A stretch of DNA of 20,000 bases, from the IMG/VR virus record IMGVR_UViG_3300001525_000355; one strand, written 5' to 3'. Positions 2,633 to 19,964 of the stretch are shown here, in pieces; the first letter of the stretch is position 1; every line of letters begins with the position of its first letter. The translations under genes and the position numbers were made by a program. This DNA is from an uncultured virus (IMG/VR IMGVR_UViG_3300001525_000355) (lineage: Duplodnaviria > Heunggongvirae > Uroviricota > Caudoviricetes). The notes below the pieces were generated by a model. It was not told where the DNA came from, did not search any database, and saw only the letters and a list, made by a program, of their open reading frames with translations.

Positions 2633-2643
2633 GGATTTTGGTT

Positions 2644-3525: not shown

Positions 3526-3542
3526 TTTTAATTTGATTTTTT

Positions 3543-5279: not shown

Positions 5280-5291
5280 GGATCAATCATA

Positions 5292-8200
5292 ATGAATTTA
5301 AATGAAGCTTTAGATAAAAGTTATATTACTTTTCTGGATAATTTCCATAAATTCATTGATAAAGAGACTAAGTTATATCTTGATGATGATCCTAAATCAT
5401 ATAATGTTGACAAAGATAGAAAAGATATTTGTAGCTGGTTTACTTATTATTGTACCGGTGATAATATGATAGCCTATATGACTTATGCTTTTAATGCAGT
5501 AAGTAGCGCTAAATTAAAATGGGGACTCGGAATAGATTTCCAAGACATTCTTTCTAATAATCATAAGATATTTAGTGATAATATTGTAGATACTTGTGAT
5601 CCAATTGCTTATGGTTTCATTGCAAAGATGAAAGAACAGGTAAAAGCTGAATCTTATTTTAAATCACTAATACAGGATTCAGTTAAGTTATTTAAATCAA
5701 GAATGAATGCAGCAATTGTGGATTATAAAACAGATAATCCACAAGCATATAATTGTGCACTCAATCCAGAATATCTTGCTGTTGCTGAACAGGCTTTATG
5801 CGATAGCATCACAGAAAAAATGAATGCATATTATAACAGTTTGGATGCTATGGGTAAAAATGAAGTAAATGCACTTAAATCAAGTGCAGCTTCAAGTCTT
5901 ACTAGTTTAAGAAGAGATCTTGTTTCAACTGCTCGAACTCAATGGATTGACCAACAAGATAAATGGAGACTTGATATAAGTAGTCCAATTCGAGATTGTC
6001 AAGATAAAATAAAAGCTATTATGAGTGATGAAGCAAATATCGCAGAATGGAATTCTCGATATGAAACTGAATTTAAAGCTCAAGTGGCAGCTGTTACTTT
6101 CTGGAGAGTAAAAGTAGAAGCTGTTTTATCAACATTAGTTAGTGATATATTACAAAATAGTGAAATTACTACTACTTTTAGTGAAGGTGTTGATAAGATT
6201 TATAATGGTTTAAAAGAATCAAAAGTTGGATATTTTAATTCTGAAACAGTAATCCATGGTGATAAAGTCAAATGTCTGAAGAGAATTAAAACTTTTGCTA
6301 TGGAAGGAATTAAAAGTGTTAAAAATGGTATTAAAACAGAAATAGCTTTCCATGTAGCCAATATTAATAAATATTTCGAGGGAGAATATAGAAAAGAAGA
6401 AGTTCATAGAATGGAAGTAAGAGGAAAGTATAGAAAAAGAGGTAGAAGATGTTATGATAATATCGAAGATAATATAATGGAAGGTTCTACTATAGGAAAA
6501 GCAAAAGATTGGTGTGAAGCTGCTGCTATAAAAGCAAAAGAGACAATTCAAGCAATTGTTAAAACTATAGTAAATGCAATACAATTAATGATTAAGGTTC
6601 TGACATTTGTATTAGAATTAATAACATTAATTTTGGAAGCTATATCTGAACCACTTCAGTATTTGACTGTTGATTTACCAAATAGTATTAAAGATGCTAT
6701 CGATAATACTATAAAAACAGTAATGGATAAAATGCTTCCAAAGTTTCCAGAAGCTCCAACTAGTGCTAGTAACGGCATCAGACAATTTTGTGCTGCTGGC
6801 AGAAAAACAGTTGGTGGCGCAATGAATGTGATGAATGGTTATTTGATTAACTTCATTAAGAAGCAAATAACTACTGTGATTTCAAAGAATATGGTTCAAG
6901 CAAAGAAAGTATTTAATCAGACAACAGAAAAGATTCAAGAAATAATAAAGAAAGTATCTACACCATTTATTGAAGATACTGCAGCACAAATGGCTCAAGA
7001 ATTAGATACTGAACTTGATTTGAATAATGATGATCTTAAAGCAGAAATAACAAACGATGTAGAACTTGAAGAACCAGATGATCCCTGGTTGATAGAAATG
7101 CAACAATTATCTAGAAACCTTTATGATAATACTTATGAACTTGAAGGTTATGCTGATAAACTTGAAAAGATTGAAGAATTTTTGAGTGGTAAGAGTACTC
7201 CAGAAGAAGCTGCTGCCAATCTTATAGCGAAGTTTATTGGATTTATGACCCGTGGCGCATTAGAAGAAAAAGATGTTGGAGATTTGATAAAAGCAGCACA
7301 ACAGATTGCAGCAGGAAACATGAAGGATGCTGTTGCTGGATTACTTAATAAAACACCACTTGGACCAAAAATAAAGGTCTTTATTTCATTGTTAATGGAA
7401 CTTCTTAATTTAATGATGAGTGGTTTACTTGGTCAGCTCTTTAGCGCATTTAGCAACATGTTTAATTCAATGGGTGATAGATATTCAAATTGTTGCTATA
7501 ATTACATGTTTGGTGAAGGCGGACCTTTACGTGAAAAACTTGAAATTATTTGTGAGAATGCAGATGATCCAGAAAAATATGATGAACAATTTGTAGAAGA
7601 GAAAATTAAAGAATTGTATGAAGATATGGATGAGATTATGACTGAACCAGGATTTCTTGATAAAGCCATCCCAGAAGAAGAAAGATATGTAGATGTTGAT
7701 ACATTTGTAGAAGATGTAAATTCTGCAGTAGATGATTTCAAGAAAGACGGCGAAGAAATGGCAAAAGAAAAGATTCTTGAATATTGTAAAGAAATTGAAG
7801 AAGACAGAAGAAACGAAATTTATGAAGTATTTGATATTACAGAAAGAGAAACAGATACATTTGATCAATATGATAGTACTGATTCTTTAGCAAATGATCT
7901 TGGTACAATACCTGATGCTCTTCCTGTCAACATTGGAAACGGTTATGAACTTCTTCTTTTGTTGAAAGATAAATACAGAAATACTGTTTTACCTCTTATT
8001 TCTAAGAGTGGTGGAAATCTTATTTCATTTACATTAATACCAAGTTCAGATATAATAGCAAATGAAAAATCGGAATTATTAGATAATGATGCCATTACAT
8101 CTTTGAGTTCTATCGTATCCAATGTATCTACTGATACTAAATATTGGGAAAATCTTAAAGAAATTCTTAGTCAGGCAACTATTCTCAATATGAGAGTTGT

Positions 8201-8909
8201 TATTACTTTATGGGATTTCAGAGATAAAGTCATAGCAAAGAAATTTAATAATCTTGATGATGATAAACTTTATACTGATGTTGCATGGAATGATACATAC
8301 AAAGAATTCTTTACTAGATTAAGTGGTGTATTAAGTAAATATGATTGTGATATTGTAGTAAATCTCGGATATCATAGTTATACTAATCCAAATGATATTG
8401 AACATAAGATTTATCCAATGTATCCAACTTGTGGTTTTATACGCAAGTTAATAATGTATACATCAAATGATAATAAATTGTTTACTACTAACTTAATGGG
8501 ATTGACTGCCAATGAAGAAGAAAATCTTTATTACTACAATCCTTATTGCGAATGGTATTCATTTGATGACGAAAAAGAACACAATCTTACTAATTGTCAA
8601 GTTGTAGTAAGAGATTGTGTTGATTCAGTATTTAATGATAATGGTCATATTATTACATATGATGATAAGGGTAAATGTAATGGTGGTTATATTAAGTATT
8701 ATATGAAGTGTTCAAAATATTCATTACCAATATTCTCTATGTATAATTTGAAAGAAAAGATTACCGAAGAGATGAATATTAATGATCCGAATATTATGAA
8801 TGATATCTTCTGTAAAAATTCAAGAGAAGCAATAAGAAGAGTTTATGGAAAAGATTATTTCTATAATACCGGAGTATTGGAATTTGACGAAAATGGAGAA
8901 GTAATATGA
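5292..8909 (+). CDS. Large acidic, mostly helical protein with a putative degenerate GH5/clan GH-A-like C-terminal barrel; probably virion-associated
   Basis: 1205-aa ORF between the spike and PAAR genes; AAGGA RBS; two long hydrophobic helices; C-terminal YWENLKEILSQATILNMRVVITLWD pattern is GH-A-like. Confidence 0.6.
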   Translation: MNLNEALDKSYITFLDNFHKFIDKETKLYLDDDPKSYNVDKDRKDICSWFTYYCTGDNMIAYMTYAFNAVSSAKLKWGLGIDFQDILSNNHKIFSDNIVDTCDPIAYGFIAKMKEQVKAESYFKSLIQDSVKLFKSRMNAAIVDYKTDNPQAYNCALNPEYLAVAEQALCDSITEKMNAYYNSLDAMGKNEVNALKSSAASSLTSLRRDLVSTARTQWIDQQDKWRLDISSPIRDCQDKIKAIMSDEANIAEWNSRYETEFKAQVAAVTFWRVKVEAVLSTLVSDILQNSEITTTFSEGVDKIYNGLKESKVGYFNSETVIHGDKVKCLKRIKTFAMEGIKSVKNGIKTEIAFHVANINKYFEGEYRKEEVHRMEVRGKYRKRGRRCYDNIEDNIMEGSTIGKAKDWCEAAAIKAKETIQAIVKTIVNAIQLMIKVLTFVLELITLILEAISEPLQYLTVDLPNSIKDAIDNTIKTVMDKMLPKFPEAPTSASNGIRQFCAAGRKTVGGAMNVMNGYLINFIKKQITTVISKNMVQAKKVFNQTTEKIQEIIKKVSTPFIEDTAAQMAQELDTELDLNNDDLKAEITNDVELEEPDDPWLIEMQQLSRNLYDNTYELEGYADKLEKIEEFLSGKSTPEEAAANLIAKFIGFMTRGALEEKDVGDLIKAAQQIAAGNMKDAVAGLLNKTPLGPKIKVFISLLMELLNLMMSGLLGQLFSAFSNMFNSMGDRYSNCCYNYMFGEGGPLREKLEIICENADDPEKYDEQFVEEKIKELYEDMDEIMTEPGFLDKAIPEEERYVDVDTFVEDVNSAVDDFKKDGEEMAKEKILEYCKEIEEDRRNEIYEVFDITERETDTFDQYDSTDSLANDLGTIPDALPVNIGNGYELLLLLKDKYRNTVLPLISKSGGNLISFTLIPSSDIIANEKSELLDNDAITSLSSIVSNVSTDTKYWENLKEILSQATILNMRVVITLWDFRDKVIAKKFNNLDDDKLYTDVAWNDTYKEFFTRLSGVLSKYDCDIVVNLGYHSYTNPNDIEHKIYPMYPTCGFIRKLIMYTSNDNKLFTTNLMGLTANEEENLYYYNPYCEWYSFDDEKEHNLTNCQVVVRDCVDSVFNDNGHIITYDDKGKCNGGYIKYYMKCSKYSLPIFSMYNLKEKITEEMNINDPNIMNDIFCKNSREAIRRVYGKDYFYNTGVLEFDENGEVI

Positions 8910-9508
8910 TCACATTAGAAAGTATGTTAGAATCCAAACGTCAACATATTATTGAACATGTTCCACCTTCTGAATTTGATGAAAACATTAAAGAGGGTTT
9001 AAAGAAAAAGGAAGAAAAGTTAAAGAATCTTAGTGTAGAAAGTATGCTTGAAGAAGATCCTGGATTATTAGAAAGAATAGAAGATTTGAATAATAAAGGA
9101 ATAAGTCAAGAAGAATATGAAAACTTCATGAATAATAGTAATGGTAATGCTGCTGATATGAATACTTATAAAACAGCAACTGATACTATTTACTATAGCA
9201 AAAATAGTGGTTCATGGGTTAAAATGAGTAGCGGAGAAGCTGTTCTAATAACAAAGAATGATAAATTAAAGGTTAAGATATCTCTTTCTGGTGATCTTGT
9301 AGATACATATCAGACTACTGTTAAATGGAATTCTTTCCCAGAAGGATCTAAATTACCAACACTTACTATATCAAATAATATAACAAATGAATTTTCATTG
9401 ACTGATGATGGATTCTATTCAATTGATTTTAACTTTAAGTCGAAAGACCATGATCAACTTCAGGGTTATGATAATATCACCATTCAAGTAGATAATGATG
9501 GAGTTTAA
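8906..9508 (+). CDS. Hypothetical protein with charged N-terminus and putative Ig-like C-terminal domain
   Basis: ATGA overlap with the previous stop (translational coupling); the C-terminal half has alternating beta-strand character (LKVKISLSG..TVKW..GFYSIDFNF..ITIQV). Confidence 0.65.
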   Translation: MITLESMLESKRQHIIEHVPPSEFDENIKEGLKKKEEKLKNLSVESMLEEDPGLLERIEDLNNKGISQEEYENFMNNSNGNAADMNTYKTATDTIYYSKNSGSWVKMSSGEAVLITKNDKLKVKISLSGDLVDTYQTTVKWNSFPEGSKLPTLTISNNITNEFSLTDDGFYSIDFNFKSKDHDQLQGYDNITIQVDNDGV

Positions 9509-9513
9509 TAAAA

Positions 9514-9807
9514 ATGGCAGCACAAGCAACATTAACACACCAGGTAGCAGGTTGTTGTGCTCCTCCTACAACAATTAATAGTGGTTCTGGAGATACTATA
9601 TGTGAAGGTAATGGAGCTGCAAGAATTGGTGATACTTGTATACCCCATGGTGCATCTATATCTTGCCCTACACATACACCTTCTGCAGCAACAGGAAATT
9701 TTTCACAAACAGTAATAATCAATGGAAAGAATGCTGTAAAAATGGGTACTGTTTGGAGTTGCGGATCTAATTCAGTACAGGGTTGCGGAACTGTAGATAT
9801 TGGTTAA
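9514..9807 (+). CDS. PAAR-repeat spike-tip protein (T4 gp5.4-like)
   Basis: 97 aa, Gly/Cys-rich; GAARIGD, PH..., TH, SQTVIINGKNAVKMG..CGS...G..TV.IG match PAAR family patterns, including His/His/Cys metal ligands. Confidence 0.9.
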   Translation: MAAQATLTHQVAGCCAPPTTINSGSGDTICEGNGAARIGDTCIPHGASISCPTHTPSAATGNFSQTVIINGKNAVKMGTVWSCGSNSVQGCGTVDIG

Positions 9808-9824
9808 CGGAACTAAATTAAGTT

Positions 9825-10358
9825 ATGAAAGTACCATATAAACAAGTATACCTCCCAAGAGGTCCCAAACGGTATAGATATATCGTTTTACATGATACAA
9901 ATTGTATGTGTCACAAGTTTAATGACTTTAAAAATGATACTGTTCAATTTCAAACTAATAAGTTAAGATATAGAATTCGTCAAGAAAAGAAATGGTTTGA
10001 ATTACCTTATCATTTTGTATGTGAAAAGATATTGGATGATTATGAAACCGTTAATGGAAGACCTTTGAAATATAGTTGTGAAGATTGTTATCCGGATTTA
10101 ACTACTAATTTTTCAAGATTTGCAGTACATATTTGTGTAATGGGTAACTTTAATGTAATGACTGGTGATACAAGAATGTATCAACAAATATGTTATAGAG
10201 CTATTACACCAGTAATGTCATTGTATAGAATACCGAAGGGTAATATCTTCTTTCATGGAGAACTCAATCCGGGTCAACTTGATTGCCCAGGATTTAATTT
10301 TAGTAAAAGTCATTTGAAGGCATATATTCAACCGTTTCTTGTTGCTCAACCTTCATGA
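9825..10358 (+). CDS. N-acetylmuramoyl-L-alanine amidase (Amidase_2, T7 lysozyme/PGRP fold)
   Basis: YIVLHDT, YHF, GR, ICVMGNF, FFHGEL, CPG motifs with the His/His/Cys Zn ligands and catalytic Tyr. Confidence 0.85.
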   Translation: MKVPYKQVYLPRGPKRYRYIVLHDTNCMCHKFNDFKNDTVQFQTNKLRYRIRQEKKWFELPYHFVCEKILDDYETVNGRPLKYSCEDCYPDLTTNFSRFAVHICVMGNFNVMTGDTRMYQQICYRAITPVMSLYRIPKGNIFFHGELNPGQLDCPGFNFSKSHLKAYIQPFLVAQPS

Positions 10359-10374: not shown

Positions 10375-10414
10375 AAGAAAAATGAGTGGGGTCTTTCGAT
10401 CCCACTCATCTTTA
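10375..10414. terminator. Bidirectional intrinsic terminator between convergent genes
   Basis: Stem ATGAGTGGGGTC (10382-10393) / GATCCCACTCAT (10398-10409) with one G-U pair and a TTTC loop; A tract on the left (U tract on the minus strand) and TTT on the right. Confidence 0.85.
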
Positions 10415-10427
10415 ACACACAATTTGA

Positions 10428-11969
10428 TTAGATCATAAGATCAATTCTTTCTCTCAAACTATCAAGCATATCATTCATACTATCAGAGAAGAAATCATTA
10501 TAGAAATTAGTAATCTCTTCTTCCATTTTCAATGCTGGGAAGTTTGGAACTGTATTACCGTTCATAAAATTCATATACTCATTCTTGTTGATTTTACCAA
10601 CAATAGAGCTATAGATATCATATGCTGCGGTAAGGTTTTTGAATCCCATAAAATTCTTAAACGATTGTGTAAATTGAGGAACATTCTTCAATTTATAAGT
10701 CGTTTTAGTAATCGGTTTCTGAATGTTATAATAAGTAAGTATCTTAATAAGATTAGGATACTTCTGTTCCCATTCAGAACCCCTGAACAGATCATACAAA
10801 AGAATATTCAACATATAAGTAATTGAAGTACTCAATGTATTGAAATGTCTATAAGGAATATCTGTAATCTTACTAAGAATTGGGAAAGTAAAGTACTTGG
10901 CAAATACAGAAGGTTCCTTGATAGTATCAATTATAGATTTGAAGTGCTCAACCTTCTCTTCGCTATCAAAGATATTTTCCAAACTCTGATAAGCAAGAAC
11001 AGTTAAAGCAGCAACTGTATTATTATGAGCATATGATTCAAGATTATCTTTACCTGAAACAGCTGCAACATCCTGGGTTGCAATTGTATCACTGTATATG
11101 ATACTCTCTTTATAGATGGACTTGAGAATCCATTTAATAGATTCATCAATGACACTAATCATATAAGGAATTGGATTCGAATCATATTCACAAGTAACTA
11201 TGATATAGTTAATGATGAAGTTAAAGATGTGAGTAATATGCATATCAGGAGTCTTACAACAAAGATTTCTGATATATTCCCACATATACTTATCAGTATG
11301 ATTATACTCATAAGTCTTTGAAGAAACAATCTTGTGAAGTTTAATAATGATTGCAGAATTAGTGAGATTCTTTACAAGATTCTGGAAAATTTCTCTATTG
11401 AAATTCTCACTAATCTTCATAGTCATATCTTTATAAAGACTATAATAAATCTTCAGATAACAAGCAGCTTTGATAATCTCCTTGATTTCAGAAGCATCAA
11501 AGAAGATGGAACTTTTAGATTTCTTTGATTCATCGATATAGTTATCAAAGTTAATATTCTGCTTTTCGATAAATTCATCACAGAATGAAATAATCTGAGG
11601 AATTGCATTCTGGATAATTTTGACATCCATTCCAGATTTCAAATAAGAATCAATGGTACCAATATAAAATTCATTAAACGGTTGACCAAGAACCTCTGAA
11701 CATTTTTCAACAAAATTAAGCATATTATCATACTTGTTAGAACCAGGAGCATAAACCAGCTCTATTTCTTTAACAGTACGAGGTTCACCATTCCAACCAG
11801 TAACTTCAGATGTAGTAACATCTTTAGTGACTTCTTTACCCTCTCTATTCTTTTCTTTAATCTGACGAGTAACTTGTCCTATTATAGGATCACCATACAA
11901 CAATGTATATTCACGTTTTTTGAACTGCCCATTTGCATCAAGTTTCTTTATGAACTTTATTAGTGCCAT
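10428..11969 (-). CDS. Putative sigma-like promoter-specificity subunit of the phage RNAP (phiKZ gp68 / AR9 gp226-like)
   Basis: 513 aa, helical; segments IFFDASEIKEIIKAACYLKIY, KLHKIVSSKT...TDKYMW and NPIPYMISVIDESIKW resemble, from recollection, conserved blocks of the gp68/gp226 family; similar size; adjacent to the RNAP genes; AAGGA RBS. Confidence 0.5.
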   Translation of the reverse strand: MALIKFIKKLDANGQFKKREYTLLYGDPIIGQVTRQIKEKNREGKEVTKDVTTSEVTGWNGEPRTVKEIELVYAPGSNKYDNMLNFVEKCSEVLGQPFNEFYIGTIDSYLKSGMDVKIIQNAIPQIISFCDEFIEKQNINFDNYIDESKKSKSSIFFDASEIKEIIKAACYLKIYYSLYKDMTMKISENFNREIFQNLVKNLTNSAIIIKLHKIVSSKTYEYNHTDKYMWEYIRNLCCKTPDMHITHIFNFIINYIIVTCEYDSNPIPYMISVIDESIKWILKSIYKESIIYSDTIATQDVAAVSGKDNLESYAHNNTVAALTVLAYQSLENIFDSEEKVEHFKSIIDTIKEPSVFAKYFTFPILSKITDIPYRHFNTLSTSITYMLNILLYDLFRGSEWEQKYPNLIKILTYYNIQKPITKTTYKLKNVPQFTQSFKNFMGFKNLTAAYDIYSSIVGKINKNEYMNFMNGNTVPNFPALKMEEEITNFYNDFFSDSMNDMLDSLRERIDLMI

Positions 11970-12211
11970 TTTATTGTCCTTTTCTACCTTTTCGTTGTAA
12001 ACAAAAACAAGTATAATTTTAGATTAGATATATATAGTTTTTAAAACCATATATATCTGAATCTTTTGAAACTGAAAATTCATATCAAAATAAAATATAT
12101 GTAGAAAGTGTTGATGATTTAAAGTTTTAACGATAGAATAGAATTTTTAAGTATTTGAACTAAATTCAAATAGGTTACAAGTATTTTTATATTAAAAAGG
12201 TTATTGTCATT
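11970..12211. promoter_or_regulatory. Divergent AT-rich control region containing two inverted repeats
   Basis: The only long intergenic gap in the window (242 bp), between divergent genes; near-perfect palindrome at 12021-12064 and hairpin TATTTGAA-ctaaa-TTCAAATA at 12152-12172. Confidence 0.65.
12021..12064. repeat. 44-bp imperfect palindrome
   Basis: AGATT.AGATATATAT.aGTTTT-t-AAAACc.ATATATATCT.g.AATCT: one mismatch and one bulge. Confidence 0.8.
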
Positions 12212-12601
12212 ATGGATTTCATTTTAGAGCAAGCAATGCTGACTGTTATCTATAATCAAAGCAATAATTCAAAACGAAAATGCGATTACGTTTGTGGAGA
12301 ACAAGTAAAACGTGATGCGAATTTCGATATTAATTTGAGAATTTGTAGAGCAACATGTGATGTGCAGTGGGATAAGATGTATCTTCAAGAGATACAAAAA
12401 CTTTTGCAAAAATATCCGGAAGATAATAAGTTGCAACAAGCTGGTGTATCCAAATTGAAGTATGCAAGAAAAAGACTTGATGGATCATTAAAAAGATTGG
12501 CAAGAGCAAAACAAGCTTTGCGAGTTAAAATGTCAACTCCCGCTGCTGATTTATCTACAAGAGTTGCCAAACCAATGGCAGCATTTACGACTCAAGATTA
12601 A
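12212..12601 (+). CDS. Small basic helical hypothetical protein with two CxxxC motifs
   Basis: 129 aa; CDYVC and CRATC; AAAGG RBS; 21 bp upstream of the beta' gene. Confidence 0.7.
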   Translation: MDFILEQAMLTVIYNQSNNSKRKCDYVCGEQVKRDANFDINLRICRATCDVQWDKMYLQEIQKLLQKYPEDNKLQQAGVSKLKYARKRLDGSLKRLARAKQALRVKMSTPAADLSTRVAKPMAAFTTQD

Positions 12602-12622
12602 TTTTTGATAAGAGGTTTTTGA

Positions 12623-15600
12623 ATGATTAATTTGCTTGATATGAATAAGATACAGGAGAAATTAACTCCTGTCACTTCATTTGAATATACTGTTGGAGCA
12701 AAGAGTAATCAGTTCCATCCAGAAGGTTTATTTAGTGAAATTATTTTTGGTAATAAGGAAACAAGAGAAAGAGCCAATACGTTTTCTTATATCAATTTAA
12801 ATTGTAAAGTTTTACATCCGGCACTGGTTAAACCCATTTATCGTTTAAATGGAAAGATTCTTGAAATTCTTCAATTAAAGCAGACATATAATCTTAATAA
12901 GAATAATATGTTAGAAGCTGCTGATGAAGGTGAACTTAATGGTGTAACTACTGTCATCAAACACTTTCCAGAACTTATATCAAAACAAGAGCAAGAAGGA
13001 ATTAGAAACGACATAAAGAATATGATTCTTTATCAGTTTAAGAATAATCTTGCTTTTATAGATAAATGTATTGTTATACCTGCAGCATATAGAGATGCTC
13101 AAATCGAAGATGATACCGGTTCATTGAGAATTCCGGTTGTTAATGAATATTATCAGAAAATCATTAAATTGAGTCTTCAAATTAAATCTCTTGGTATGCA
13201 AGAAGGATCTCCAATTTATGAGATTCATGCAGCAAGAATGTTTGGTTTAATTAATGAATTGTATGATTTTATATTAAATAAACTCTCCAAAAAGCAGGGA
13301 ATGGTTAGACAGGATATTCTTGGTAAGAGAGTTGATTTTTCCGGAAGAGCTGTTATTGTTGGCGGATCTACTAATATTAAAGCAGATGAAATTGGTATTC
13401 CGTATAAAATGTTAGTAAAGATATACGAACCATTCATTCTTTATTATTTGTATAATAGTGGAAAAGTAGATAGAAGTAATTTAAATGATTTAGTCAAAAA
13501 TTATAATAATACAACAGCATCAATTCTTTCATTACGTCAGTTATTAACTGATATTCAGAAAGGTCATACTTTACCAAAAGAACTTGATGAAGTTATAAGA
13601 GATGCTGTAAAGGAAGTTATTAAAGATAAAGCATTAATTGCGAAAAGGGATCCTGCACTTCATGCTGAATCAGTTAGAGGATTTAAACCCGTATTAGTAG
13701 ATGGTGATTCTATTGAGATTACTCCATCCTGCTGTGCAGCGTTTAATGCCGATTTTGATGGGGACGCAATGGCGCTCTATACTCCTTTAACAAAAGAATC
13801 AATAGAAGAGGTTAGAACAAAGATTGTTGATTCATCATCAAGAGATGGTATGAATCAAAACTGTGATGGAATTGATAAAGATTTTGTTATTGGTATATAT
13901 ACTCTTACTAAGAATTATCTAAAATTTAAAGATATTAAACCAAAGATTATTAAGAGTGAATCAGAATTAGATTCGTTACATCCAAATTATCCAATTATAG
14001 TAAATGGTGATGTAACTACAGTTGGTAGATATATCTTTAATAAGATACTTCCGGATAAGAAGTACAGAATTAATGTTCCTGTTACAAGTAAGGTTCTTTC
14101 TGGTATTAAAAATCAAATATTCATTGATTACGGAAATGGTAAAGAATATGTTGATTTTATATCCTCTGTAATGGAACTTGGTTCTAAGTATTATACATTA
14201 ATGCCATCTACATTCTCATTGGATGATCTTGAAATACCCCAGTCTATTCTTAAACTTAAACCATTACTCAAGACTGCTACTCCTGAACAAGCTCAGAAGA
14301 TCATTGATAAAATGAAAGCTTTACTCAAGGTATATCTTGAGGAAAATCAATTAAATCTTGGTATAATGGAGAGTGCTGGTGGCGTTAAAGGTTATGATCA
14401 ATTAATTCAGGTTTTAGTAACGAAGGGAATTATTCAAGCACCAAATGGTGAAGCACAAGTAGTACCAGATTCATTTGGTGATGGTATGAAGTCTTATGAT
14501 TTCTTTGCTTCTGGTTATGCATCAAGAAATGGTATTATTGCTCGTGTTATTAATACTACTGATACCGGTTATCTTTCTAGAAGACTTATTTATGCACTTC
14601 AAAGAGTAGAAGCAAATCCAAAACTTGAGGATTGCGGAACTAAACGTTTTGTTACTCTTAAAGTTACACCAGATATAGCTAAACGTTTAATCGGCAGATA
14701 CATATATGATGATAACAATAAGTTAATACAGTTTGATCCATCCAGGGATTCTGACAAGATTATAAGACTTAGATCTCCAATATATTGTCAATCTTCTAAA
14801 TTGTGCAGACATTGTTATGGTGAATTATTAACTAGAAATAATACGCCATATGTTGGTATTGTTTCTGCCCAAATATTGGGTGAAAAATTGAGTCAGGGTA
14901 CTATGAAACAGTTCCATTTGGGTGGTACCATTGAGATGAAGAAAATAAATCTTGCTCATGAATTATGCTCAATGTTTGATAACGGAACCAAGTTGTTATT
15001 CTCTAAAGATTTTACTATTGATGATAATAAGTTGTTATTAAAGAATGGTAAATGCAGAATTGTAATTAATAAAGAATTCTATAAAGATAAGAAAGATATC
15101 GTTATAGATGATAAGAAGATAATGCATTTATCATATGGTTATTTCACATTATCAACATCTAACTATTCTTCAGAACCGACAATTGATAATAAGATTGATA
15201 TTGATCTCAATTCTTGCAGTGATATAGTTGAAAATGATAAGGAATGGTCTTTGGTATTTGATAAACCAAATTCATTGATCTTTATCTGTGTTCCTACACC
15301 AAATGTATTCAGTAACCAAGTTAAATTGGTAGATTCATTATTTAGTGGTCATCAACCATATAAGAATTCAGATCACTTTTTAATGAAAGTTTATGATATC
15401 TATGCCAATGGATTTAAGTGTGGTGCTGATATGGTACACTTCGAAACATTAGTGAGTAATCTTTTGAGAGATAAGGGAAATCCATCATATCCAGCAAGAT
15501 TGAATCCAAAAACATATCAACCAACTTCTGTTTCATTAAATAGTATTCCCAAACTTGAATCTTGGTTACAGGCATTTGCTTTCCAAGATCCAAAAGAAGC

Positions 15601-15676
15601 AATCACTACTGGTCTTCTTTATAGTAGACCAAATGATGAAACAATTCTTGAGAAGCTTATAACGAATAATTTCTAA
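12623..15676 (+). CDS. rpoC: Phage multisubunit DNA-directed RNA polymerase beta' subunit (unsplit)
   Basis: GLFSEIIFG, LGKRVDFSGRAVI, RDPALH, catalytic FNADFDGD (NADFDGD at 13745-13765), bridge helix TTDTGYLSRRL, DCGT...RSPIYC...CRHCYG Zn site, trigger loop AQILGEKLSQGTMKQFHLGG, HFETLV and SWLQAFAF, all in one ORF. Confidence 0.97.
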   Translation: MINLLDMNKIQEKLTPVTSFEYTVGAKSNQFHPEGLFSEIIFGNKETRERANTFSYINLNCKVLHPALVKPIYRLNGKILEILQLKQTYNLNKNNMLEAADEGELNGVTTVIKHFPELISKQEQEGIRNDIKNMILYQFKNNLAFIDKCIVIPAAYRDAQIEDDTGSLRIPVVNEYYQKIIKLSLQIKSLGMQEGSPIYEIHAARMFGLINELYDFILNKLSKKQGMVRQDILGKRVDFSGRAVIVGGSTNIKADEIGIPYKMLVKIYEPFILYYLYNSGKVDRSNLNDLVKNYNNTTASILSLRQLLTDIQKGHTLPKELDEVIRDAVKEVIKDKALIAKRDPALHAESVRGFKPVLVDGDSIEITPSCCAAFNADFDGDAMALYTPLTKESIEEVRTKIVDSSSRDGMNQNCDGIDKDFVIGIYTLTKNYLKFKDIKPKIIKSESELDSLHPNYPIIVNGDVTTVGRYIFNKILPDKKYRINVPVTSKVLSGIKNQIFIDYGNGKEYVDFISSVMELGSKYYTLMPSTFSLDDLEIPQSILKLKPLLKTATPEQAQKIIDKMKALLKVYLEENQLNLGIMESAGGVKGYDQLIQVLVTKGIIQAPNGEAQVVPDSFGDGMKSYDFFASGYASRNGIIARVINTTDTGYLSRRLIYALQRVEANPKLEDCGTKRFVTLKVTPDIAKRLIGRYIYDDNNKLIQFDPSRDSDKIIRLRSPIYCQSSKLCRHCYGELLTRNNTPYVGIVSAQILGEKLSQGTMKQFHLGGTIEMKKINLAHELCSMFDNGTKLLFSKDFTIDDNKLLLKNGKCRIVINKEFYKDKKDIVIDDKKIMHLSYGYFTLSTSNYSSEPTIDNKIDIDLNSCSDIVENDKEWSLVFDKPNSLIFICVPTPNVFSNQVKLVDSLFSGHQPYKNSDHFLMKVYDIYANGFKCGADMVHFETLVSNLLRDKGNPSYPARLNPKTYQPTSVSLNSIPKLESWLQAFAFQDPKEAITTGLLYSRPNDETILEKLITNNF

Positions 15677-15689
15677 GAGGAAATATACA

Positions 15690-18600
15690 ATGATACGTCT
15701 TGATAAGTTCAAAATCTTTCCTTATAAAACCAGTGAGATTTTCTGGCCGGGTAATCAGAGTAATGAATCTCCTGTGAATTTTGTATTTTTCCCAGAGAAT
15801 TCAAATTTCAATCAAGCATACAGAAGAATAAAGATTCCTCGTCGTTTTTGTAAGTACGGAACTATTCTTCCAAGTAAGATTCCGAGAATTATTTATACAA
15901 GAGATTTGGTTACTCAATATTTACTTTTCAAACTTATTCCGGTTAGAAATGTAACACAAGCAGTTAAGAATATCTTTATTGATACTACACCATTTCTTAC
16001 TAAACTTGATGATAAGTATAAGAGGGGTTCATACAGAAGACCCACAGTTCTTGATAAAATTGATACTTATTTAAATCAGGTAAATACAAGTGATTCTTTG
16101 GTTGGTAGACATAATGTTTTACTTTATTATGTTGATTTGACTCAACCCCTTATTAATAGTCCAATGTATAAGAGAGGTTGGGCTATTGTTGATATGTTTA
16201 AGAGAGAAGAGTTTTATAATTACAGTCATATAATGATGTGTGTCTGGACTGGAGCCAAAACTCTTTATTATATGTTGAAGGGTAATGATAAAGCTTTATC
16301 ATGGGTTCGAGTATACAATATCATTGGATCATTAAAACAAAAGATCGATACTAAACAAATTGAGGATTCAAATGATGAATTGTGTAATGATATTCTTATT
16401 ACAAATGATATCAATGCATTAGATCATCATGATGAACCAGAATTATATAGTAATCCTCTTATCTCTAAAACTGAATATGATTTGGGATTAAAACCAGTAG
16501 TAAATAAAACACCCAATAAAATTGTTTCTGTTGATGAATATTCTTTGACAAATGATAATGATAAGAAAACCAAGGGTGCAATTAAGAGATTCTTACAAAC
16601 AAGACCGACTTTGACTGGATTACTTAAGAGTCAACCAATTACTCCATATACTTCACGTAAAGTTACTTTAGCATCAATCCTTTCAAGAAATCTTAGAAAT
16701 GATGAATTAGCAGCACAATCTATTAAGAAAATAGAACCAGAAAACTATCTTCAAACTATAGATAAACTTAAGAAAGATATAGTTCCAAATCTTTTAAGAC
16801 ATGATAGTTATGAGAATGAAGCAAGACAGCCAGTATTTGATAATGCTGGTTTAAATGCTGTGAATGATCACAAGAATCCCAGTGCCATTCTTAATAAGAG
16901 AAAAGTTGATTTCAAGAAATCATTGACAAGAGATTTGATTAATTCATTCTTAATTCTTAGTAAGAATGAAAAATATCCTCTCAAGTTAATAGATCTTTCT
17001 TATAAATCAATTCCGATTAAATCTGGTGATTTACAACCATCCAAGTTTGGTGAGTATAAGGCATTACTTCAGGATGATCAAGGTAAGATTCATGAAGTTA
17101 TAATTGAAGTACCAGAAATTCAGAATGATGGAACTTTCTTAATTAATGGTAATAAGAAATACATGATGTATCAGATTGTCATTGATCCTATTTTCTTTAT
17201 GAAAAAGAATCAAGGAACACTTCAGACAATGTATGCTCCTGTTACTGTCATTCTTAAAGAGACTAAACATAAGTCATATTTCAATTGTTATATTGCTGGT
17301 TACTTTATACCAATGTCTCTTCTTTTGACTTATTATCTTGGTCTTGATAAACTTGGTAAGTTATTTGGTTTTTCATACAGAACAGTTGATTCTGCTAATA
17401 AAGATTCAAAATTCTATTCACTTGACTTTTCTGATAAGAAATCAATTGAGTTTAGTTATGATACAAATAATAAGTTTGTAACTTATCTTCTTGATTCATT
17501 TAAGGAAAGTGTAGCCTTTTCCAAAATGCAATCAAGTGATCTTCTTGGTAAGACCAAATTGGCTGAAGCAATCATTAAAGAAACCAATAACAGAAATAGT
17601 ATTTTTAGAATTGATCAGGTTCTCAAGAATATAATGGAACCCATTTCTTTAGAAGTTCTCAAGAGTAAAATGCTTCCTACAACATTTGAAGATTGTATGA
17701 AGTATATATGTGAAAACATAGCAGCTGGAAGAGTTGATTCTAGAAATGATATTAGTAAACAAAGAATTAGATCTTCTGAAGTTATGTCTTATCAGATTCA
17801 GAAGCAGATTCTTGCATCTTATTCTCAATATTTGACAGATAGAGAACATGGTAATACTGATGCAAAGTATTTCTGTGATACTCGTCAAATTATCAAATCC
17901 ATTATTAATAGTAGTGAATCTAAGTTGATGAGAGAATTGGATAACATCAATCCATATGATGAACTTAGTTGTTTAACTGCTATATCTCCTGTTGGTGATG
18001 GCGGTGTTGCAAATGCTGATGCTATTACTAAAGAAGCAAGAAATATCAATGATAGTTACTATGGTAATATAGATTCAATGGATACACCAGAAAATGGTAA
18101 CATTGGTGTTTTGAATCATCTTACTATAGATGCAGCAATTGGTAATATCAAGGGTTCATTTGGTAAAGTTGATCCGAAGGATAATATCGGAGCTGGAGCA
18201 TTGTCAGTTTGTAGTGCTGTTGTACCTTTCGTTAATCATAATGATGGATGTCGTGTTATGTTCTCTGGTTCGCAGGGAAGACAGGCAATTCCGATTATTG
18301 GCAATCAGAAACCCTTGGTCCAAACAGGTTATGAAACCATTATGACATCAATGCTTGGTGAATCTTATATCAAGAAGACTTATCAAGATGGAATTGTTTC
18401 TAAAATAACCCCAAATGCCATATATATTAGAAATAAGGAAGGTTCTGAAGAAAAAGTTATCCTTGATAACCCTGTTCTGAAAACCAGTGTGGGTCAAATT
18501 AAGGGTGCTTTAAACAATTTCAGTCCAGTAGTTAAAATTGGTCAGAAAGTTAAAGCTGGTCAAATTCTTGCAGAAGGTAAGCACATTAAAGATGGTGTCA

Positions 18601-19964
18601 TTAGTGTTGGTACTAATCTTTTAGTTGCAATGATGGGTTGGAAGGGTTATACTTTTGAAGACGGTTATGTAGTTTCTGAAAGTGTGGCAAATAAGACCTT
18701 GACTAGTACATCATATGAAGAAAAAGAAGTATTAATTACTAAAGATGATAATGTCAAATATATAGCAGAATCTGGTAAATTTACTCAAAGTGGTGATTCA
18801 TTATTAGTCAGATCTTCCAAGAATATTGAACAGATTATTGGAATGGATGAAGATGAAATTGTTGAAGGTCAACAAGTCATTAAATCACCAGGTGGTAGAA
18901 TTTTGAGTATTGAGATTTATCCAAATATTTCAATTAAGAAATTCCCTGTTCTCATTCCAGAATATGAGAAGTTTAGAGAAAGATATATAGAATCCAACGG
19001 TTCTTTCCCTGAAAAATTCTTTAATAGTAGTAGTGATAATGGTATTCCGTTTAGCGGTATTAAGATTGTATTTAAGATAGAAAGATACGATACTTGTATA
19101 TTGGGTGACAAGATCAGTAATAATCATGGCGGTAAGGGTACTATTACTTATATAGAAAAAGATAAGAATATGCCTGTGACTCCGTGGGGTGAAAAGATTG
19201 ATATCTTATTCAATCCGATTGCTGTAGTAAACAGAATGAATCCTGGTACCATTTATGAATTATATAGTGGTTTGATTGCCAAGACATTGGCAAGAAGAGT
19301 CTGTTCATTGGGTTATAATAAGAATCAAAAAGCAATAGATTTAATGTCAATGGTTTATAAGACTATGGATAATACAAGAGATAAGGTATTATCTTCAAAT
19401 ATCATTAAATCATTGAACAGTCTCAATGACCAGCAATATGTAAGATTTATCAATCAGACTATTGATGATGGTTATGTGATGCCAATGTATGTACCACAAT
19501 TCCAAGAACCATCAAAGGAAATGATTCGTTCCACTATGAAGATTCTTGGTCTTCAGGATAAATACTATCTTACATTACCTGAATTTGGTAGTAAGACACT
19601 TGAACCGGTTGCTGTTGGTTATCTTTATTATAAGAAACTTGAACAACAGGCAGCGTATAAACAATCAGTAAGATCAACTGGTAAATATAATGTTTCTACT
19701 GGTCAGGCTACTGCTGGTAAAGCACAGGGTGGTGGTCAAAGAGTTGGCGAAATGGATTCTTATTGTATGATATCACATGGTTGTATCAATACATTGAGAG
19801 AATTGTTTGGTCCAATGTCTGATGATAAAGCAACCAAAGAAGAAATAATTTCAGAAATCATTAATAATGGTGAAGCATCATATCGTGAACCCAAAAATAA
19901 TAATGTCAGAAACAAATTAAAAGTTTGGATGTACGGTATGATGATTGCTTCTGATTTAAGTTAA
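15690..19964 (+). CDS. rpoB: Phage multisubunit DNA-directed RNA polymerase beta subunit (unsplit, long N-terminal extension)
   Basis: GTFLING, TPENGNIG, PFVNHNDGCR..SQGRQA, GYTFEDG, GDKISNNHGGKG, MP...IDILFNP...RMN, GYLYYKKL, RSTG, GGQRVGEMD; AGAGGA RBS. Confidence 0.97.
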   Translation: MIRLDKFKIFPYKTSEIFWPGNQSNESPVNFVFFPENSNFNQAYRRIKIPRRFCKYGTILPSKIPRIIYTRDLVTQYLLFKLIPVRNVTQAVKNIFIDTTPFLTKLDDKYKRGSYRRPTVLDKIDTYLNQVNTSDSLVGRHNVLLYYVDLTQPLINSPMYKRGWAIVDMFKREEFYNYSHIMMCVWTGAKTLYYMLKGNDKALSWVRVYNIIGSLKQKIDTKQIEDSNDELCNDILITNDINALDHHDEPELYSNPLISKTEYDLGLKPVVNKTPNKIVSVDEYSLTNDNDKKTKGAIKRFLQTRPTLTGLLKSQPITPYTSRKVTLASILSRNLRNDELAAQSIKKIEPENYLQTIDKLKKDIVPNLLRHDSYENEARQPVFDNAGLNAVNDHKNPSAILNKRKVDFKKSLTRDLINSFLILSKNEKYPLKLIDLSYKSIPIKSGDLQPSKFGEYKALLQDDQGKIHEVIIEVPEIQNDGTFLINGNKKYMMYQIVIDPIFFMKKNQGTLQTMYAPVTVILKETKHKSYFNCYIAGYFIPMSLLLTYYLGLDKLGKLFGFSYRTVDSANKDSKFYSLDFSDKKSIEFSYDTNNKFVTYLLDSFKESVAFSKMQSSDLLGKTKLAEAIIKETNNRNSIFRIDQVLKNIMEPISLEVLKSKMLPTTFEDCMKYICENIAAGRVDSRNDISKQRIRSSEVMSYQIQKQILASYSQYLTDREHGNTDAKYFCDTRQIIKSIINSSESKLMRELDNINPYDELSCLTAISPVGDGGVANADAITKEARNINDSYYGNIDSMDTPENGNIGVLNHLTIDAAIGNIKGSFGKVDPKDNIGAGALSVCSAVVPFVNHNDGCRVMFSGSQGRQAIPIIGNQKPLVQTGYETIMTSMLGESYIKKTYQDGIVSKITPNAIYIRNKEGSEEKVILDNPVLKTSVGQIKGALNNFSPVVKIGQKVKAGQILAEGKHIKDGVISVGTNLLVAMMGWKGYTFEDGYVVSESVANKTLTSTSYEEKEVLITKDDNVKYIAESGKFTQSGDSLLVRSSKNIEQIIGMDEDEIVEGQQVIKSPGGRILSIEIYPNISIKKFPVLIPEYEKFRERYIESNGSFPEKFFNSSSDNGIPFSGIKIVFKIERYDTCILGDKISNNHGGKGTITYIEKDKNMPVTPWGEKIDILFNPIAVVNRMNPGTIYELYSGLIAKTLARRVCSLGYNKNQKAIDLMSMVYKTMDNTRDKVLSSNIIKSLNSLNDQQYVRFINQTIDDGYVMPMYVPQFQEPSKEMIRSTMKILGLQDKYYLTLPEFGSKTLEPVAVGYLYYKKLEQQAAYKQSVRSTGKYNVSTGQATAGKAQGGGQRVGEMDSYCMISHGCINTLRELFGPMSDDKATKEEIISEIINNGEASYREPKNNNVRNKLKVWMYGMMIASDLS

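What the first reader, a model, noticed from the sequence alone, without database searches (positions are those of the whole stretch)
10428..19964. Compact phage transcription system: unsplit beta' + beta RNAP next to a sigma-like subunit
Seen: two full-length two-barrel RNAP subunits, each in a single ORF, in the order beta' then beta (the reverse of bacterial rpoB-rpoC), directly beside tail/baseplate genes and with no ribosomal-protein or alpha gene in the window. Established: phiKZ- and AR9-like phages encode two RNAPs (virion and non-virion) whose beta and beta' are each split over separate genes, and only the non-virion enzyme uses a gp68/gp226 sigma-like subunit; some uncultured Caudoviricetes with deep-branching unsplit beta/beta' have been reported. 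Inference: this enzyme combines virion-RNAP-type sequence features with unsplit subunits and a neighbouring candidate gp68/gp226-type factor. It could represent an ancestral-like or independent single-RNAP system in which one core does both early and sigma-switched late transcription.
Basis: partly seen in the sequence, partly recalled or inferred. Interest (0 to 1): 0.9.

Follow-up and report, generated by a model that had tools for sequence, protein, structure and literature searches.

The report
Unsplit phage RNA polymerase plus sigma-like subunit
This stretch of an uncultivated giant-phage genome encodes a bacterial-type RNA polymerase as two whole subunits, beside a distant relative of the sigma-like promoter factor of phages AR9 and phiKZ; the polymerase lineage was already described in 2020, and related phages carry a second polymerase as well.

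Summary
Window 12623-15676 encodes an unsplit beta' (1017 aa, NADFDGD at 375-381). Window 15690-19964 encodes an unsplit beta (1424 aa, GDK..HGGKG at 1139-1150). They lie in the order beta' then beta, downstream of baseplate, spike and amidase genes.

The divergently transcribed 513-aa protein (10428-11969, minus strand) is a remote homolog of the AR9 gp226 / phiKZ gp68 sigma-like subunit. Its predicted fold matches AR9 gp226 at Z 18.5 over 412 residues. hhalign matches the sigma2-like region. The family profile's only hit in the whole AR9 genome lies inside the gp226 gene.

The lineage is not new. It is the 'mReC' clade of Weinheimer & Aylward (2020), whose own table lists relatives of this window.

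The single-RNAP idea is not supported. Nine of ten related records, including three that are 100% complete, carry a second unsplit beta'/beta pair with a short beta.

The sigma-like gene occurs once per genome and always lies near the long-beta pair. It was found upstream of beta' in 35 of 51 loci, usually on the same strand.

Whether the long-beta enzyme corresponds to the virion or the non-virion RNAP of phiKZ/AR9 stays unresolved: three trees gave no answer.

I found no paper reporting a gp226-type factor in this clade or its linkage to an unsplit core.

The parts
10382..10409 (-). Hairpin (stem ATGAGTGGG / CCCACTCAT plus inner pairs) followed on the minus strand by a U-run. It is a likely intrinsic terminator of the sigma-like gene and lies between two convergent genes.
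   Evidence: Sequence read. RNA fold of 10365-10425 (-): -24.3 kcal/mol, z -5.4, 0 of 200 shuffles fold as well. The consensus scan did not list it.
10428..11969 (-). 513-aa sigma-like subunit, a remote homolog of AR9 gp226 / phiKZ gp68. In the model, residues 1-71 form a beta-hairpin extension, about 150-290 form the sigma2-like helices (the most conserved part), 287-314 form a low-confidence 'finger' linker, and about 310-513 form the C-terminal domain.
   Evidence: No Pfam hit and only a weak PHROG hit. 147 homologs, all unnamed. AF2 pLDDT 82. Foldseek top 3 are 7s01_A, 7um0_A and 8que_B. VIA Z 18.5 / 16.9 / 9.6 / 9.5. Chain identities checked. hhalign to gp226 residues 168-263. Sole profile hit in the AR9 genome lies inside the gp226 gene.
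11970..12211 (.). Divergent intergenic region between the sigma-like gene and the RNAP operon. It contains ATATATATAGT (12028-12038) followed by CCAT. These bases are invariant in an alignment of this region with those of two relatives whose sigma-like, beta' and beta proteins are 47-58% identical to the window's. It is a candidate promoter or operator.
   Evidence: Alignment of window, L001 and L002. The motif occurs only here in the window and is not enriched over shuffles.
12212..12601 (+). 129-aa protein directly upstream of beta', with four invariant cysteines (C24, C28, C45, C49; twin CX3C) and a predicted three-helix bundle. Role unknown.
   Evidence: Alignment of 6 sequences. AF2 pLDDT 84. 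No informative fold match. Only 4 relatives in 1.84 billion representatives. A small ORF holds this position in 38 of 59 loci, but the window's type is found only in L001, L002 and L011.
12623..15676 (+). Unsplit RNAP beta' subunit, 1017 aa ('set A', the partner of the long beta).
   Evidence: Pfam Rpb1_2/3/5. NADFDGD at 375-381. Family alignment A3. Co-linear matches to the three phiKZ-type virion beta' piece families: phrog_2986 (residues 2-252), phrog_2962 (464-779) and phrog_2926 (794-1013).
15690..19964 (+). Unsplit RNAP beta subunit, 1424 aa ('set A', long beta). About 530 N-terminal residues have no detectable relative outside the clade.
   Evidence: Pfam Rpb2_3/6/7. Family of about 73 clusters of 1350-1440 aa. 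hhalign to phiKZ gp178: window 534-1206 against gp178 760-1440, probability 99.7%, N-terminus not aligned.
1378..10358 (+). Context: a tail/baseplate block. It holds a wedge-like gene (1378-2178), a VgrG/gp5-type hub (3543-5279), a 1205-aa protein of unknown function (5292-8909), a PAAR spike (9514-9807) and an amidase_2-like gene (9825-10358).
   Evidence: Pfam and PHROG hits. The same hub/tail genes lie upstream of the module in the distant relative L013.

Best explanation
The region is the 'long-beta' RNA polymerase module of an uncultivated mReC-type jumbo phage (T4-type capsid lineage). It consists of:
- a gene for a gp226/gp68-type sigma-like promoter-specificity subunit;
- a small Cys4 helical protein;
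- an unsplit beta';
- an unsplit beta.

Most likely beta' and beta form a catalytic core without alpha or omega, as in the AR9 and phiKZ non-virion RNAPs. The 513-aa protein would dock on this core as a sigma factor does, through a sigma2-like helix bundle, a finger and a C-terminal domain, and would direct it to phage promoters.

The phage very probably has a second, short-beta RNAP core elsewhere in its genome, so transcription would be divided between two enzymes.

Shown here: gene identities, intact catalytic motifs, the fold homology of the sigma-like protein, the conserved gene linkage, and the second RNAP set in relatives.

Inferred: that the sigma-like protein binds this particular core, that the core needs no alpha or omega, and which enzyme acts early and which late.
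For: Identity of the core: Pfam hits and catalytic motifs.

Phage lineage apart from bacteria: 100/100 in the beta tree.

Sigma-like protein:
- Foldseek has only 3 matches at E <= 0.001: AR9 nvRNAP chain A twice and phiKZ nvRNAP chain B. The next match has E 0.21.
- VIA gives Z 18.5 with 412 residues aligned to the 464-aa AR9 chain. The next unrelated rows have Z <= 6.4 and are bacterial sigma factors aligned on model residues about 139-301.
- 7s01_A is the AR9 'non-virion RNAP subunit' and 7ogp_B/8que_B is PHIKZ068.
- hhalign puts window 192-286 against gp226 168-263: 28% identity, E 9e-5, probability 59%. That is the sigma2-like / 2.1bis region described in PMC9209446 (passages).
- The family profile finds one place in the 251-kb AR9 genome, inside the gp226 gene, at E 6.7e-4.

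Linkage:
- There is exactly one sigma-like gene in each of 5 large relatives. It lies roughly 1 to 11 kb from the long-beta pair and at least 37 kb from the short-beta pair.
- 35 of the 51 loci with set-A beta' have it upstream. 31 of these are on the same strand, with a median gap of 646 bp.

No alpha, omega or Sigma70_r2 was found in the 5 relatives. The controls rang in 14 of 14 genomes for alpha and omega and in 10 of 14 for Sigma70_r2.

Second RNAP set: 9 of 10 related records.
Against: The window's own genome is not held. The second RNAP is therefore inferred from relatives at 58% identity or less.

The sigma-like homology is remote:
- there is no PHROG or Pfam membership;
- a profile search of PDB sequences found nothing;
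- there is no sequence signal to phiKZ gp68;
- hhalign probability is only 59%;
- the global superposition is poor (rmsd about 26 A, pTM 0.52) because the domains are oriented differently.

In phiKZ and AR9 the sigma-like subunit belongs to the non-virion enzyme. Here the neighbouring core scores better against virion-type profiles.

16 of 51 loci lack the sigma-like gene in the flank held; 7 of those have under 4 kb of upstream sequence.

Gene linkage is not binding.
Confidence: 0.68

Rival explanations
1. The long-beta enzyme is the virion-packaged, early RNAP (functional counterpart of phiKZ gp178/gp149/gp180/gp80). The sigma-like protein serves the other, short-beta core, as gp226/gp68 serve the non-virion enzymes. 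On this reading the adjacency reflects gene order, not partnership.
For: - Virion-type PHROG profiles score best on beta' residues 2-252 (phrog_2986 = gp180 family, 157.6 bits) and on beta (phrog_3148 = gp178 family, 223 bits).
- The beta' C-terminus matches phrog_2926, 'virion structural protein'.
- The short-beta set of G001 scores better on non-virion profiles: 171 vs 93 bits for beta, 123 vs 65 for beta' C, 98 vs 58 for beta' N.
- The long beta has the overall length of gp178-type virion subunits, about 1400-1480 aa.
- The module sits beside baseplate genes.
- The AU test does not reject long-beta + virion (p 0.109) or short-beta + non-virion (p 0.301).
Against: - The sigma-like gene is kept next to the long-beta pair, mostly co-oriented like an operon, across relatives down to about 30% identity.
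- It is never near the short-beta pair in 5 genomes.
- None of three trees groups long-beta with the virion clade. The groups form an unresolved star.
- The competing PHROG profiles match different parts of the proteins, so the bit scores are not strictly comparable.
Confidence: 0.22
2. One reading: a single-RNAP phage in which this one unsplit core does both early and sigma-switched late transcription.
For: Only one beta'/beta pair lies in the 20-kb window. One related fragment (G006, 61 kb) shows one pair only. The cultured Cobetia phage Carin-5 (154 kb) has a single unsplit pair.
Against: 9 of 10 related records have two beta genes. These include all three records rated 100% complete and 3 of 4 in the window's own subclade. 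The exception is rated 19% complete. The mReC supplementary table also lists 'a' and 'b' RNAP sets on single contigs.
Confidence: 0.07
3. Cellular rpoC-rpoB from a misassigned bacterial contig.
For: Bacterial RpoB are the next-best matches after the phage family, at E about 1e-60. One family member is labelled as a Clostridiaceae MAG protein.
Against: - The phage clade separates from 9 bacterial RpoB at 100/100.
- The gene order is reversed relative to bacteria.
- Baseplate, PAAR and amidase genes lie alongside.
- Relatives are 250-320-kb viral records with a gp23-type capsid gene.
- No alpha or omega was found.
Confidence: 0.01

Closest known systems
mReC, multi-subunit-RNAP-encoding Caudovirales (Weinheimer & Aylward 2020, PMC7481178)
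   Same: Unsplit beta and beta' on metagenomic tailed-phage contigs, an RNAP branch apart from cellular ones, and a gp23-type capsid protein (PF07068). The records behind L016/G003, L011 and L019 carry the metagenome numbers found in the paper's supplementary files. Its RNAP table gives them the matching contig lengths (277,131, 141,546 and 57,485 bp) and beta/beta' lengths of 1365/1002, 1370/1016 and 1373/1004 aa, the window's type.
   Different: In the parts I searched by term, the paper's main text does not discuss two RNAP sets per genome, a sigma-like factor, or a link to phiKZ/AR9 enzymes. The 'a'/'b' sets appear only in the supplementary table.
AR9 non-virion RNAP holoenzyme with gp226 (PDB 7S01, 7UM0; PMC9209446)
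   Same: Two-barrel core without alpha or omega, plus a sigma-like subunit. The 513-aa model aligns with gp226 over both domains (Z 18.5). The sigma2-like / 2.1bis segment is the most conserved part of both families.
   Different: AR9 beta and beta' are each split into two genes; here each is one ORF. The residue aligned with gp226 V206, which excludes thymine according to PMC9209446, is Y228 here (my reading of the alignment). Uracil-specific recognition is therefore not expected. The window's protein has an extra N-terminal beta-hairpin of about 60 residues.
phiKZ non-virion RNAP with gp68 (PDB 7OGP, 8QUE)
   Same: The C-terminal domain of the 513-aa model matches the gp68 C-terminal domain: Z 9.6, 165 residues, rmsd 4.0.
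   Different: No sequence-level signal to gp68. The phiKZ subunits are split. phiKZ has a phiKZ-type capsid, and PF07068 found no match in it. No match to the phiKZ nuclear shell protein was found in 5 relatives, which is a weak test.
phiKZ-type virion RNAP (gp178, gp149, gp180, gp80 and a gp244-type piece)
   Same: It gives the best PHROG profile scores for the beta' N-terminus and for beta, and co-linear coverage of beta' by the three virion piece families. The long beta is of gp178-like length.
   Different: The subunits here are unsplit. Trees do not join the two groups. The N-terminal 530 residues of beta do not align with the gp178 N-terminus. Virion location is untested.
Cobetia phage Carin-5 (PV155638), a cultured phage with unsplit beta' then beta
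   Same: Same gene order, a gp23-type capsid protein, and a small gene annotated as 'RNA pol sigma factor' directly upstream of beta'. It is the best tblastn hit for the window's beta among 50,697 phage records.
   Different: Only 24.8% identity over 44% of beta. It has a single RNAP set, no match to the 513-aa family, and a long branch in all trees.

Membership tests
Multisubunit (two-barrel) RNAP beta' / beta | Rpb1 and Rpb2 domain architecture above Pfam cut-offs | tested here: met
   PF00623 94.1 bits, PF04998 60.4 bits, PF00562 137.1 bits, PF04565 39.5 bits. PF04983 and PF04560 fall just under their cut-offs.
Multisubunit (two-barrel) RNAP beta' / beta | Catalytic NADFDGD in beta' and the GDK..HG.KG lysines in beta | tested here: met
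   NADFDGD at 375-381, invariant in alignment A3. G1139 D1140 K1141 N1144 K1149 G1150 are invariant in A1. The motif names are recalled knowledge.
mReC (PMC7481178) | Unsplit beta and beta' on a tailed-phage contig | tested here: met
   Single ORFs of 1017 and 1424 aa beside baseplate, PAAR and amidase genes.
mReC (PMC7481178) | RNAP clusters apart from cellular homologs | tested here: met
   Phage sequences against 9 bacterial RpoB: 100/100 on 362 columns. No archaeal or eukaryotic sequences were included.
mReC (PMC7481178) | gp23-type major capsid protein (PF07068) | tested here: inconclusive
   Present in 5 of 5 large relatives and absent from phiKZ. The window itself holds no capsid gene and its genome is not held.
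mReC (PMC7481178) | Relatives listed in the authors' own dataset | tested here: met
   The metagenome numbers of the records behind L016/G003, L011 and L019 occur in the supplementary files.
gp226/gp68 sigma-like subunit of jumbo-phage RNAP | Two-domain fold (NTD with sigma2-like helices, finger, CTD) matching the solved subunits | tested here: met
   Z 18.5 with 412 residues aligned to 7s01_A. Z 9.6 to the gp68 CTD. Foldseek E 2e-6.
gp226/gp68 sigma-like subunit of jumbo-phage RNAP | Sequence-family membership (phrog_25005 = AR9 gp226, phrog_3209 = gp68) | tested here: not met
   No such PHROG hit. There are only an hhalign match to gp226 at E 9e-5 / 59% and a profile hit of E 6.7e-4 in the AR9 genome. 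Nothing to gp68.
gp226/gp68 sigma-like subunit of jumbo-phage RNAP | Physical subunit of the RNAP, needed for promoter-specific initiation | not testable with these tools
   Needs co-purification and in vitro transcription.
gp226/gp68 sigma-like subunit of jumbo-phage RNAP | Uracil-selective 2.1bis valine (AR9 V206) | tested here: not met
   The position aligned with V206 is Y228: TDKYMWEYI against SDVVIWTYL (my reading of the alignment, probability 59%).
phiKZ/AR9-type virion RNAP | beta and beta' split into several genes | tested here: not met
   Both are single ORFs.
phiKZ/AR9-type virion RNAP | Orthology with the virion clade rather than the non-virion clade | tested here: inconclusive
   Profile scores lean towards the virion type. 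Three trees are unresolved. AU p 0.109.
phiKZ/AR9-type virion RNAP | Packaged in the virion | not testable with these tools
   Needs particle proteomics.
Bacterial sigma-70 family | Sigma70_r2 / r4 Pfam domains | tested here: not met
   No Pfam family on the 513-aa protein. There is only structural resemblance of model residues about 139-301 to sigma factor chains, Z 4.6-6.4.

The most novel reading that the evidence does not exclude
This lineage keeps the undivided, ancestral-like form of the whole jumbo-phage transcription system. It would hold two unsplit alpha-less RNAP cores plus one gp226/gp68-type sigma-like subunit, inside phages with T4-type capsids.

The sigma-like factor would be wired to the long-beta core, the one most like virion RNAPs by profile. 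If so, the two-RNAP-plus-sigma-like design predates the gene splits and the phiKZ/AR9 lineages. The pairing of the sigma-like subunit with a 'non-virion' enzyme would then be a later or lineage-specific arrangement.
Probability: 0.25. Interest if true: 0.8.

Novelty: new variant of a known kind. Interest (0 to 1): 0.52.

Why it matters
The origin of the two RNAPs of jumbo phages is called unknown in a 2026 review (PMC13282480, passages), as is how their sigma-like subunit arose.

This clade has both RNAP cores unsplit and a recognisable gp226-type factor. It therefore links the mReC lineage (2020) with the phiKZ/AR9 enzymes. The mReC authors left those enzymes out of their trees, according to PMC7598289.

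It also offers a simpler system for biochemistry: a three-gene holoenzyme instead of five. Such a system could test how a minimal alpha-less RNAP assembles and finds promoters.

Tried and rejected
- Whole-genome search of the window's own genome: none is held.
- Megablast to 50,697 phage records: no match.
- Viral-contig scan with the single beta protein: no relative. The alignment-based scan worked.
- Profile of the 513-aa family against PDB sequences: best E 0.31, noise.
- hhalign of that family against phiKZ gp68 and against the Carin-5 'sigma factor': nothing.
- tblastn of the 513-aa protein against phages: only E 0.6-0.9 hits, on residues 210-286, to Staphylococcus jumbo-phage genes. Two of these are annotated as 'RNA polymerase specificity subunit'. 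Suggestive, not significant.
- Complex prediction of beta' 1-480 with the sigma-like protein 60-513: score 0.00, 'no answer', controls not run. This says nothing either way.
- Trees of beta (362 columns), beta' N (351 columns) and beta' C (293 columns): each group is monophyletic but the relations between groups are unresolved. AU tests reject neither pairing.
- hhalign of the beta family against gp178: the N-terminal 530 residues stay unaligned.
- phiKZ nuclear shell protein against 5 relatives: no match (single-sequence query, weak test).
- Sigma70_r2, alpha and omega Pfam searches in relatives: none over cut-off.
- Small 129-aa ORF: no Pfam or PHROG hit, no fold match at E <= 0.001, and no detectable homology to the 31-member family that holds the same position in distant relatives or to ORFs upstream of set-B beta'.
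- Motif ATATATATAGT: not repeated elsewhere in the window.
- The search of earlier findings: nothing.
- Literature searches for a prior description of a gp226/gp68-type factor or two RNAP sets in mReC: none found among the listings. I did not read every listed paper. bioRxiv supplements are closed.

Full report
**What is in the window.** The ORF map shows a tight plus-strand gene block from 634 to 10358. It is followed by one minus-strand gene (10428-11969, 513 aa) and then a plus-strand block: 12212-12601 (129 aa), 12623-15676 (1017 aa) and 15690-19964 (1424 aa).
- Pfam marks the 1017-aa protein as RNAP beta' (Rpb1 domains 2, 5 and, just under cut-off, 3).
- It marks the 1424-aa protein as RNAP beta (Rpb2 domains 6, 3 and, just under cut-off, 7).
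- The catalytic NADFDGD stands at beta' 375-381 and is invariant in 32 family members.
- The beta motif GDK..N..KG (1139-1150) is invariant in 27 members.
- Upstream genes are a baseplate-wedge-like protein, a VgrG/gp5-type hub, a PAAR spike and an amidase.

**Which lineage.** No DNA-level match exists among 50,697 phage records. By tblastn all 159 matching records are under 60% identical and none covers 80% of beta. The best is the cultured Cobetia phage Carin-5, at 24.8% over 44%.

In the large protein collection, beta has a family of about 73 clusters of 1350-1440 aa, down to about 28% identity, on contigs up to 330 kb. Bacterial RpoB follow only at E about 1e-60. An alignment-based scan of IMG/VR gave 59 loci.

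In a beta tree (41 rows, 362 columns, site-heterogeneous model) all phage sequences separate from 9 bacterial RpoB at 100/100. The 'nests inside a cellular clade' refutation does not apply.

Five large relatives all carry a gp23-type capsid gene (PF07068), which found no match in phiKZ. The records behind L016/G003, L011 and L019 carry metagenome numbers found in the supplementary files of Weinheimer & Aylward 2020 (PMC7481178). I read part 1 of 6 of that paper's text, several term searches, and supplementary files 4 and 5 by term search. The lineage is thus the published 'mReC' clade, and the unsplit RNAP as such is already known.

**One RNAP or two.** The window's genome is not held, so I searched the records behind related loci.
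- All five large ones (255-322 kb; three rated 100% complete, two with terminal repeats) contain two beta genes and two beta' genes.
- One pair has a long beta (1348-1445-aa frames), the window's type, which I call 'set A'.
- The other pair has a short beta (1004-1075 aa), 'set B'. It lies 30-50 kb away and is also in the order beta' then beta.
- In G001 the two sets are about 26% identical to each other.
- Four of five further fragments also have both. The exception is rated 19% complete.

That makes 9 of 10 records, and 3 of 4 in the window's own subclade. The mReC supplementary table likewise lists 'a' and 'b' sets on single contigs. The main text, in the term searches I ran, does not discuss this. 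The single-RNAP interpretation is therefore unlikely.

**The 513-aa protein.** It has no Pfam family and no meaningful PHROG hit. It has 147 homologs, all unnamed. Its family is at least as conserved as beta; the invariant residues are concentrated at 210-292. A profile search of PDB sequences found nothing.

The AlphaFold model (32-row alignment, pLDDT 82.1, pTM 0.52) has:
- an N-terminal beta-hairpin;
- a helical N-terminal domain;
- a low-confidence loop at 287-314;
- a C-terminal domain.

Foldseek gives only three matches at E <= 0.001: 7s01_A (2e-6), 7um0_A (1.2e-5) and 8que_B (1.6e-4). The next match has E 0.21. The second-look aligner gives Z 18.5 (412 residues aligned, model 1-493) and 16.9 to the AR9 chains. 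It gives Z 9.6 and 9.5 to the phiKZ chain's C-terminal domain. Below those come bacterial sigma factor chains at Z 4.6-6.4 on model residues about 139-301. Chain 7s01_A is the AR9 'non-virion RNAP subunit' (gp226 of the papers), and 7ogp_B/8que_B is PHIKZ068.

At the sequence level:
- hhalign aligns window 192-286 with gp226 168-263 (28% identity, E 9e-5, probability 59%).
- The family profile, run over the whole AR9 genome in six frames, hits one place only, inside the gp226 gene (E 6.7e-4). It hits nothing in phiKZ, SA1, Carin-5 or JD-Fnp6.

The aligned segment is the sigma2-like region with the '2.1bis' helix that PMC9209446 describes as the promoter-reading element (passages). By my reading of the alignment, the residue opposite the uracil-selective V206 is Y228, so the AR9 uracil pocket is not expected here. 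The homology is remote, and membership of the named PHROG families is not met.

**Which core does it serve?** Each of the five large relatives has exactly one such gene. It lies roughly 1 to 11 kb from set A and at least 37 kb from set B.

Of the 59 loci, 51 contain set-A beta', and 35 of those have the sigma-like gene upstream within the flank held. In 31 it is on the same strand as beta', with a median gap of 646 bp, room for one small ORF. In 4 it is on the opposite strand; these are L001, L002, L003 and L011, which belong to the window's subclade. Of the 16 loci without it, 7 have under 4 kb of upstream sequence.

An operon-like arrangement kept down to about 30% identity argues that the factor works with the long-beta core. 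That is an inference; binding was not shown.

No alpha, omega or Sigma70_r2 homolog was found in the five relatives. The controls rang in 14 of 14 genomes for alpha and omega and in 10 of 14 for Sigma70_r2. This fits an alpha-less core like those of AR9 and phiKZ.

**Virion-type or non-virion-type?** I mapped PHROG families onto phiKZ and AR9 genes:

| PHROG | Gene(s) | RNAP piece |
|---|---|---|
| 2986 | phiKZ gp180 | virion beta' N |
| 2987 | phiKZ gp55 | non-virion beta' N |
| 2962 | phiKZ gp80, AR9 virion beta' C | virion beta' C |
| 3015 | phiKZ gp74, AR9 non-virion beta' C | non-virion beta' C |
| 3148 | phiKZ gp178 | virion beta |
| 3295 | AR9 non-virion beta C, phiKZ gp71 + gp73 | non-virion beta C |

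The window's beta' scores 157.6 bits on 2986 (residues 2-252) against 90.4 on 2987 (residues 177-399). Its beta scores 223 bits on 3148 against 121 on 3295. Its beta' C-terminus matches phrog_2926, 'virion structural protein'.

Set B of G001 leans the other way: 171 vs 93 for beta, 123 vs 65 for beta' C, and 98 vs 58 for beta' N.

But the rival profiles cover different stretches of the proteins. Trees of beta, beta' N and beta' C each recover set A, set B and the virion group as clades. The non-virion group is a clade in two of the trees and splits in two in the beta' N tree. The relations between groups stay unresolved. AU tests reject neither set A + virion (p 0.109) nor set B + non-virion (p 0.301). 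The N-terminal 530 residues of beta do not align with the gp178 N-terminus. Orthology is open, and 'virion-type features' is only partly supported.

**Other anatomy.**
- A strong hairpin (10382-10409) followed by a U-run on the minus strand closes the sigma-like gene.
- In the divergent intergenic region, ATATATATAGT (12028-12038) and a CCAT ten bases downstream are invariant in the alignment of the window, L001 and L002. The motif occurs nowhere else in the window. It is a candidate promoter or operator, nothing more.
- The 129-aa ORF before beta' has four invariant cysteines and a confident three-helix model, without an informative fold match.
- A small ORF holds this position in 38 of 59 loci. 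The window's version is recognisable only in L001, L002 and L011 and is not detectably related to the 31-member family of the distant loci.
- Downstream of the module, relatives encode topoisomerase II, an ATPase and an HNH endonuclease; upstream lie baseplate genes. The module therefore sits at the border of the structural and DNA-metabolism blocks.

**Verdict.** The feature is real. It is a member of a published lineage and not a single-RNAP system.

What I did not find in print is a gp226/gp68-type sigma-like subunit in this clade, its conserved linkage to the long-beta unsplit core, or the reading that these phages hold a full two-RNAP-plus-sigma-like system in unsplit form. Among the papers holding both 'gp226' and 'gp68' and the one paper that cites the mReC title together with 'non-virion', none describes these points by listing or abstract. 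A 2026 review still calls the origin of the two RNAPs unknown (PMC13282480, passages).

I rate it a new variant of a known kind, of moderate interest.

Noticed in passing
L079/L113/L128 (Fusobacterium phage JD-Fnp6, record ON464763, about 117.5-120.3 kb): The virion-type beta' N (phrog_2986) and beta' C (phrog_2962) matches lie in one 935-aa open frame. In this record (flagged UNVERIFIED_ORG) the virion beta' therefore appears unsplit, unlike in phiKZ and AR9.
   Followed up: partly
Proteins P0103, P0104, P0106: Proteins of 1987-2409 aa carry both Rpb2 (beta) and Rpb1 (beta') Pfam domains. These are apparent beta-beta' fusions on metagenomic contigs up to 183 kb.
   Followed up: no
L003 (4458-8630), L039 (3681-8207), L051 (5624-9871); proteins P0305, P0306, P0309, P0070: Several set-A beta' genes are 1390-1508 aa instead of about 1010. 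One beta (P0070, 1717 aa) carries a LAGLIDADG domain (PF14528). These look like intein-like or other insertions in the RNAP genes of relatives.
   Followed up: no
Proteins P0109-P0114: Distant beta-like proteins of 1790-1950 aa are fused to GNAT acetyltransferase and peptidase M23 domains, on contigs up to 260 kb.
   Followed up: no
window 5292-8909 (+): A 1205-aa protein lies between the VgrG-like hub and the PAAR spike, with no Pfam hit over cut-off and no PHROG family. It is probably a large baseplate or tail component.
   Followed up: no
L061 14248-14898 (G001, just after set-B beta): A GTP cyclohydrolase I gene (PF01227, 226 bits) directly follows the short-beta RNAP pair, and an SbcC-like nuclease gene precedes it. 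GTP cyclohydrolase I in phages is often tied to 7-deazaguanine DNA modification (recalled).
   Followed up: no
L069 7050-7640 (Cobetia phage Carin-5): The gene annotated 'RNA pol sigma factor' directly upstream of the unsplit beta' has no Pfam family at E <= 0.01 and no similarity to the 513-aa family. Its nature is unverified.
   Followed up: partly
G007 (record behind L003, 193,518 bp): IMG/VR classes this relative as a 'provirus', although it carries both RNAP sets like the lytic-looking jumbo relatives. This may be a classification artefact.
   Followed up: no
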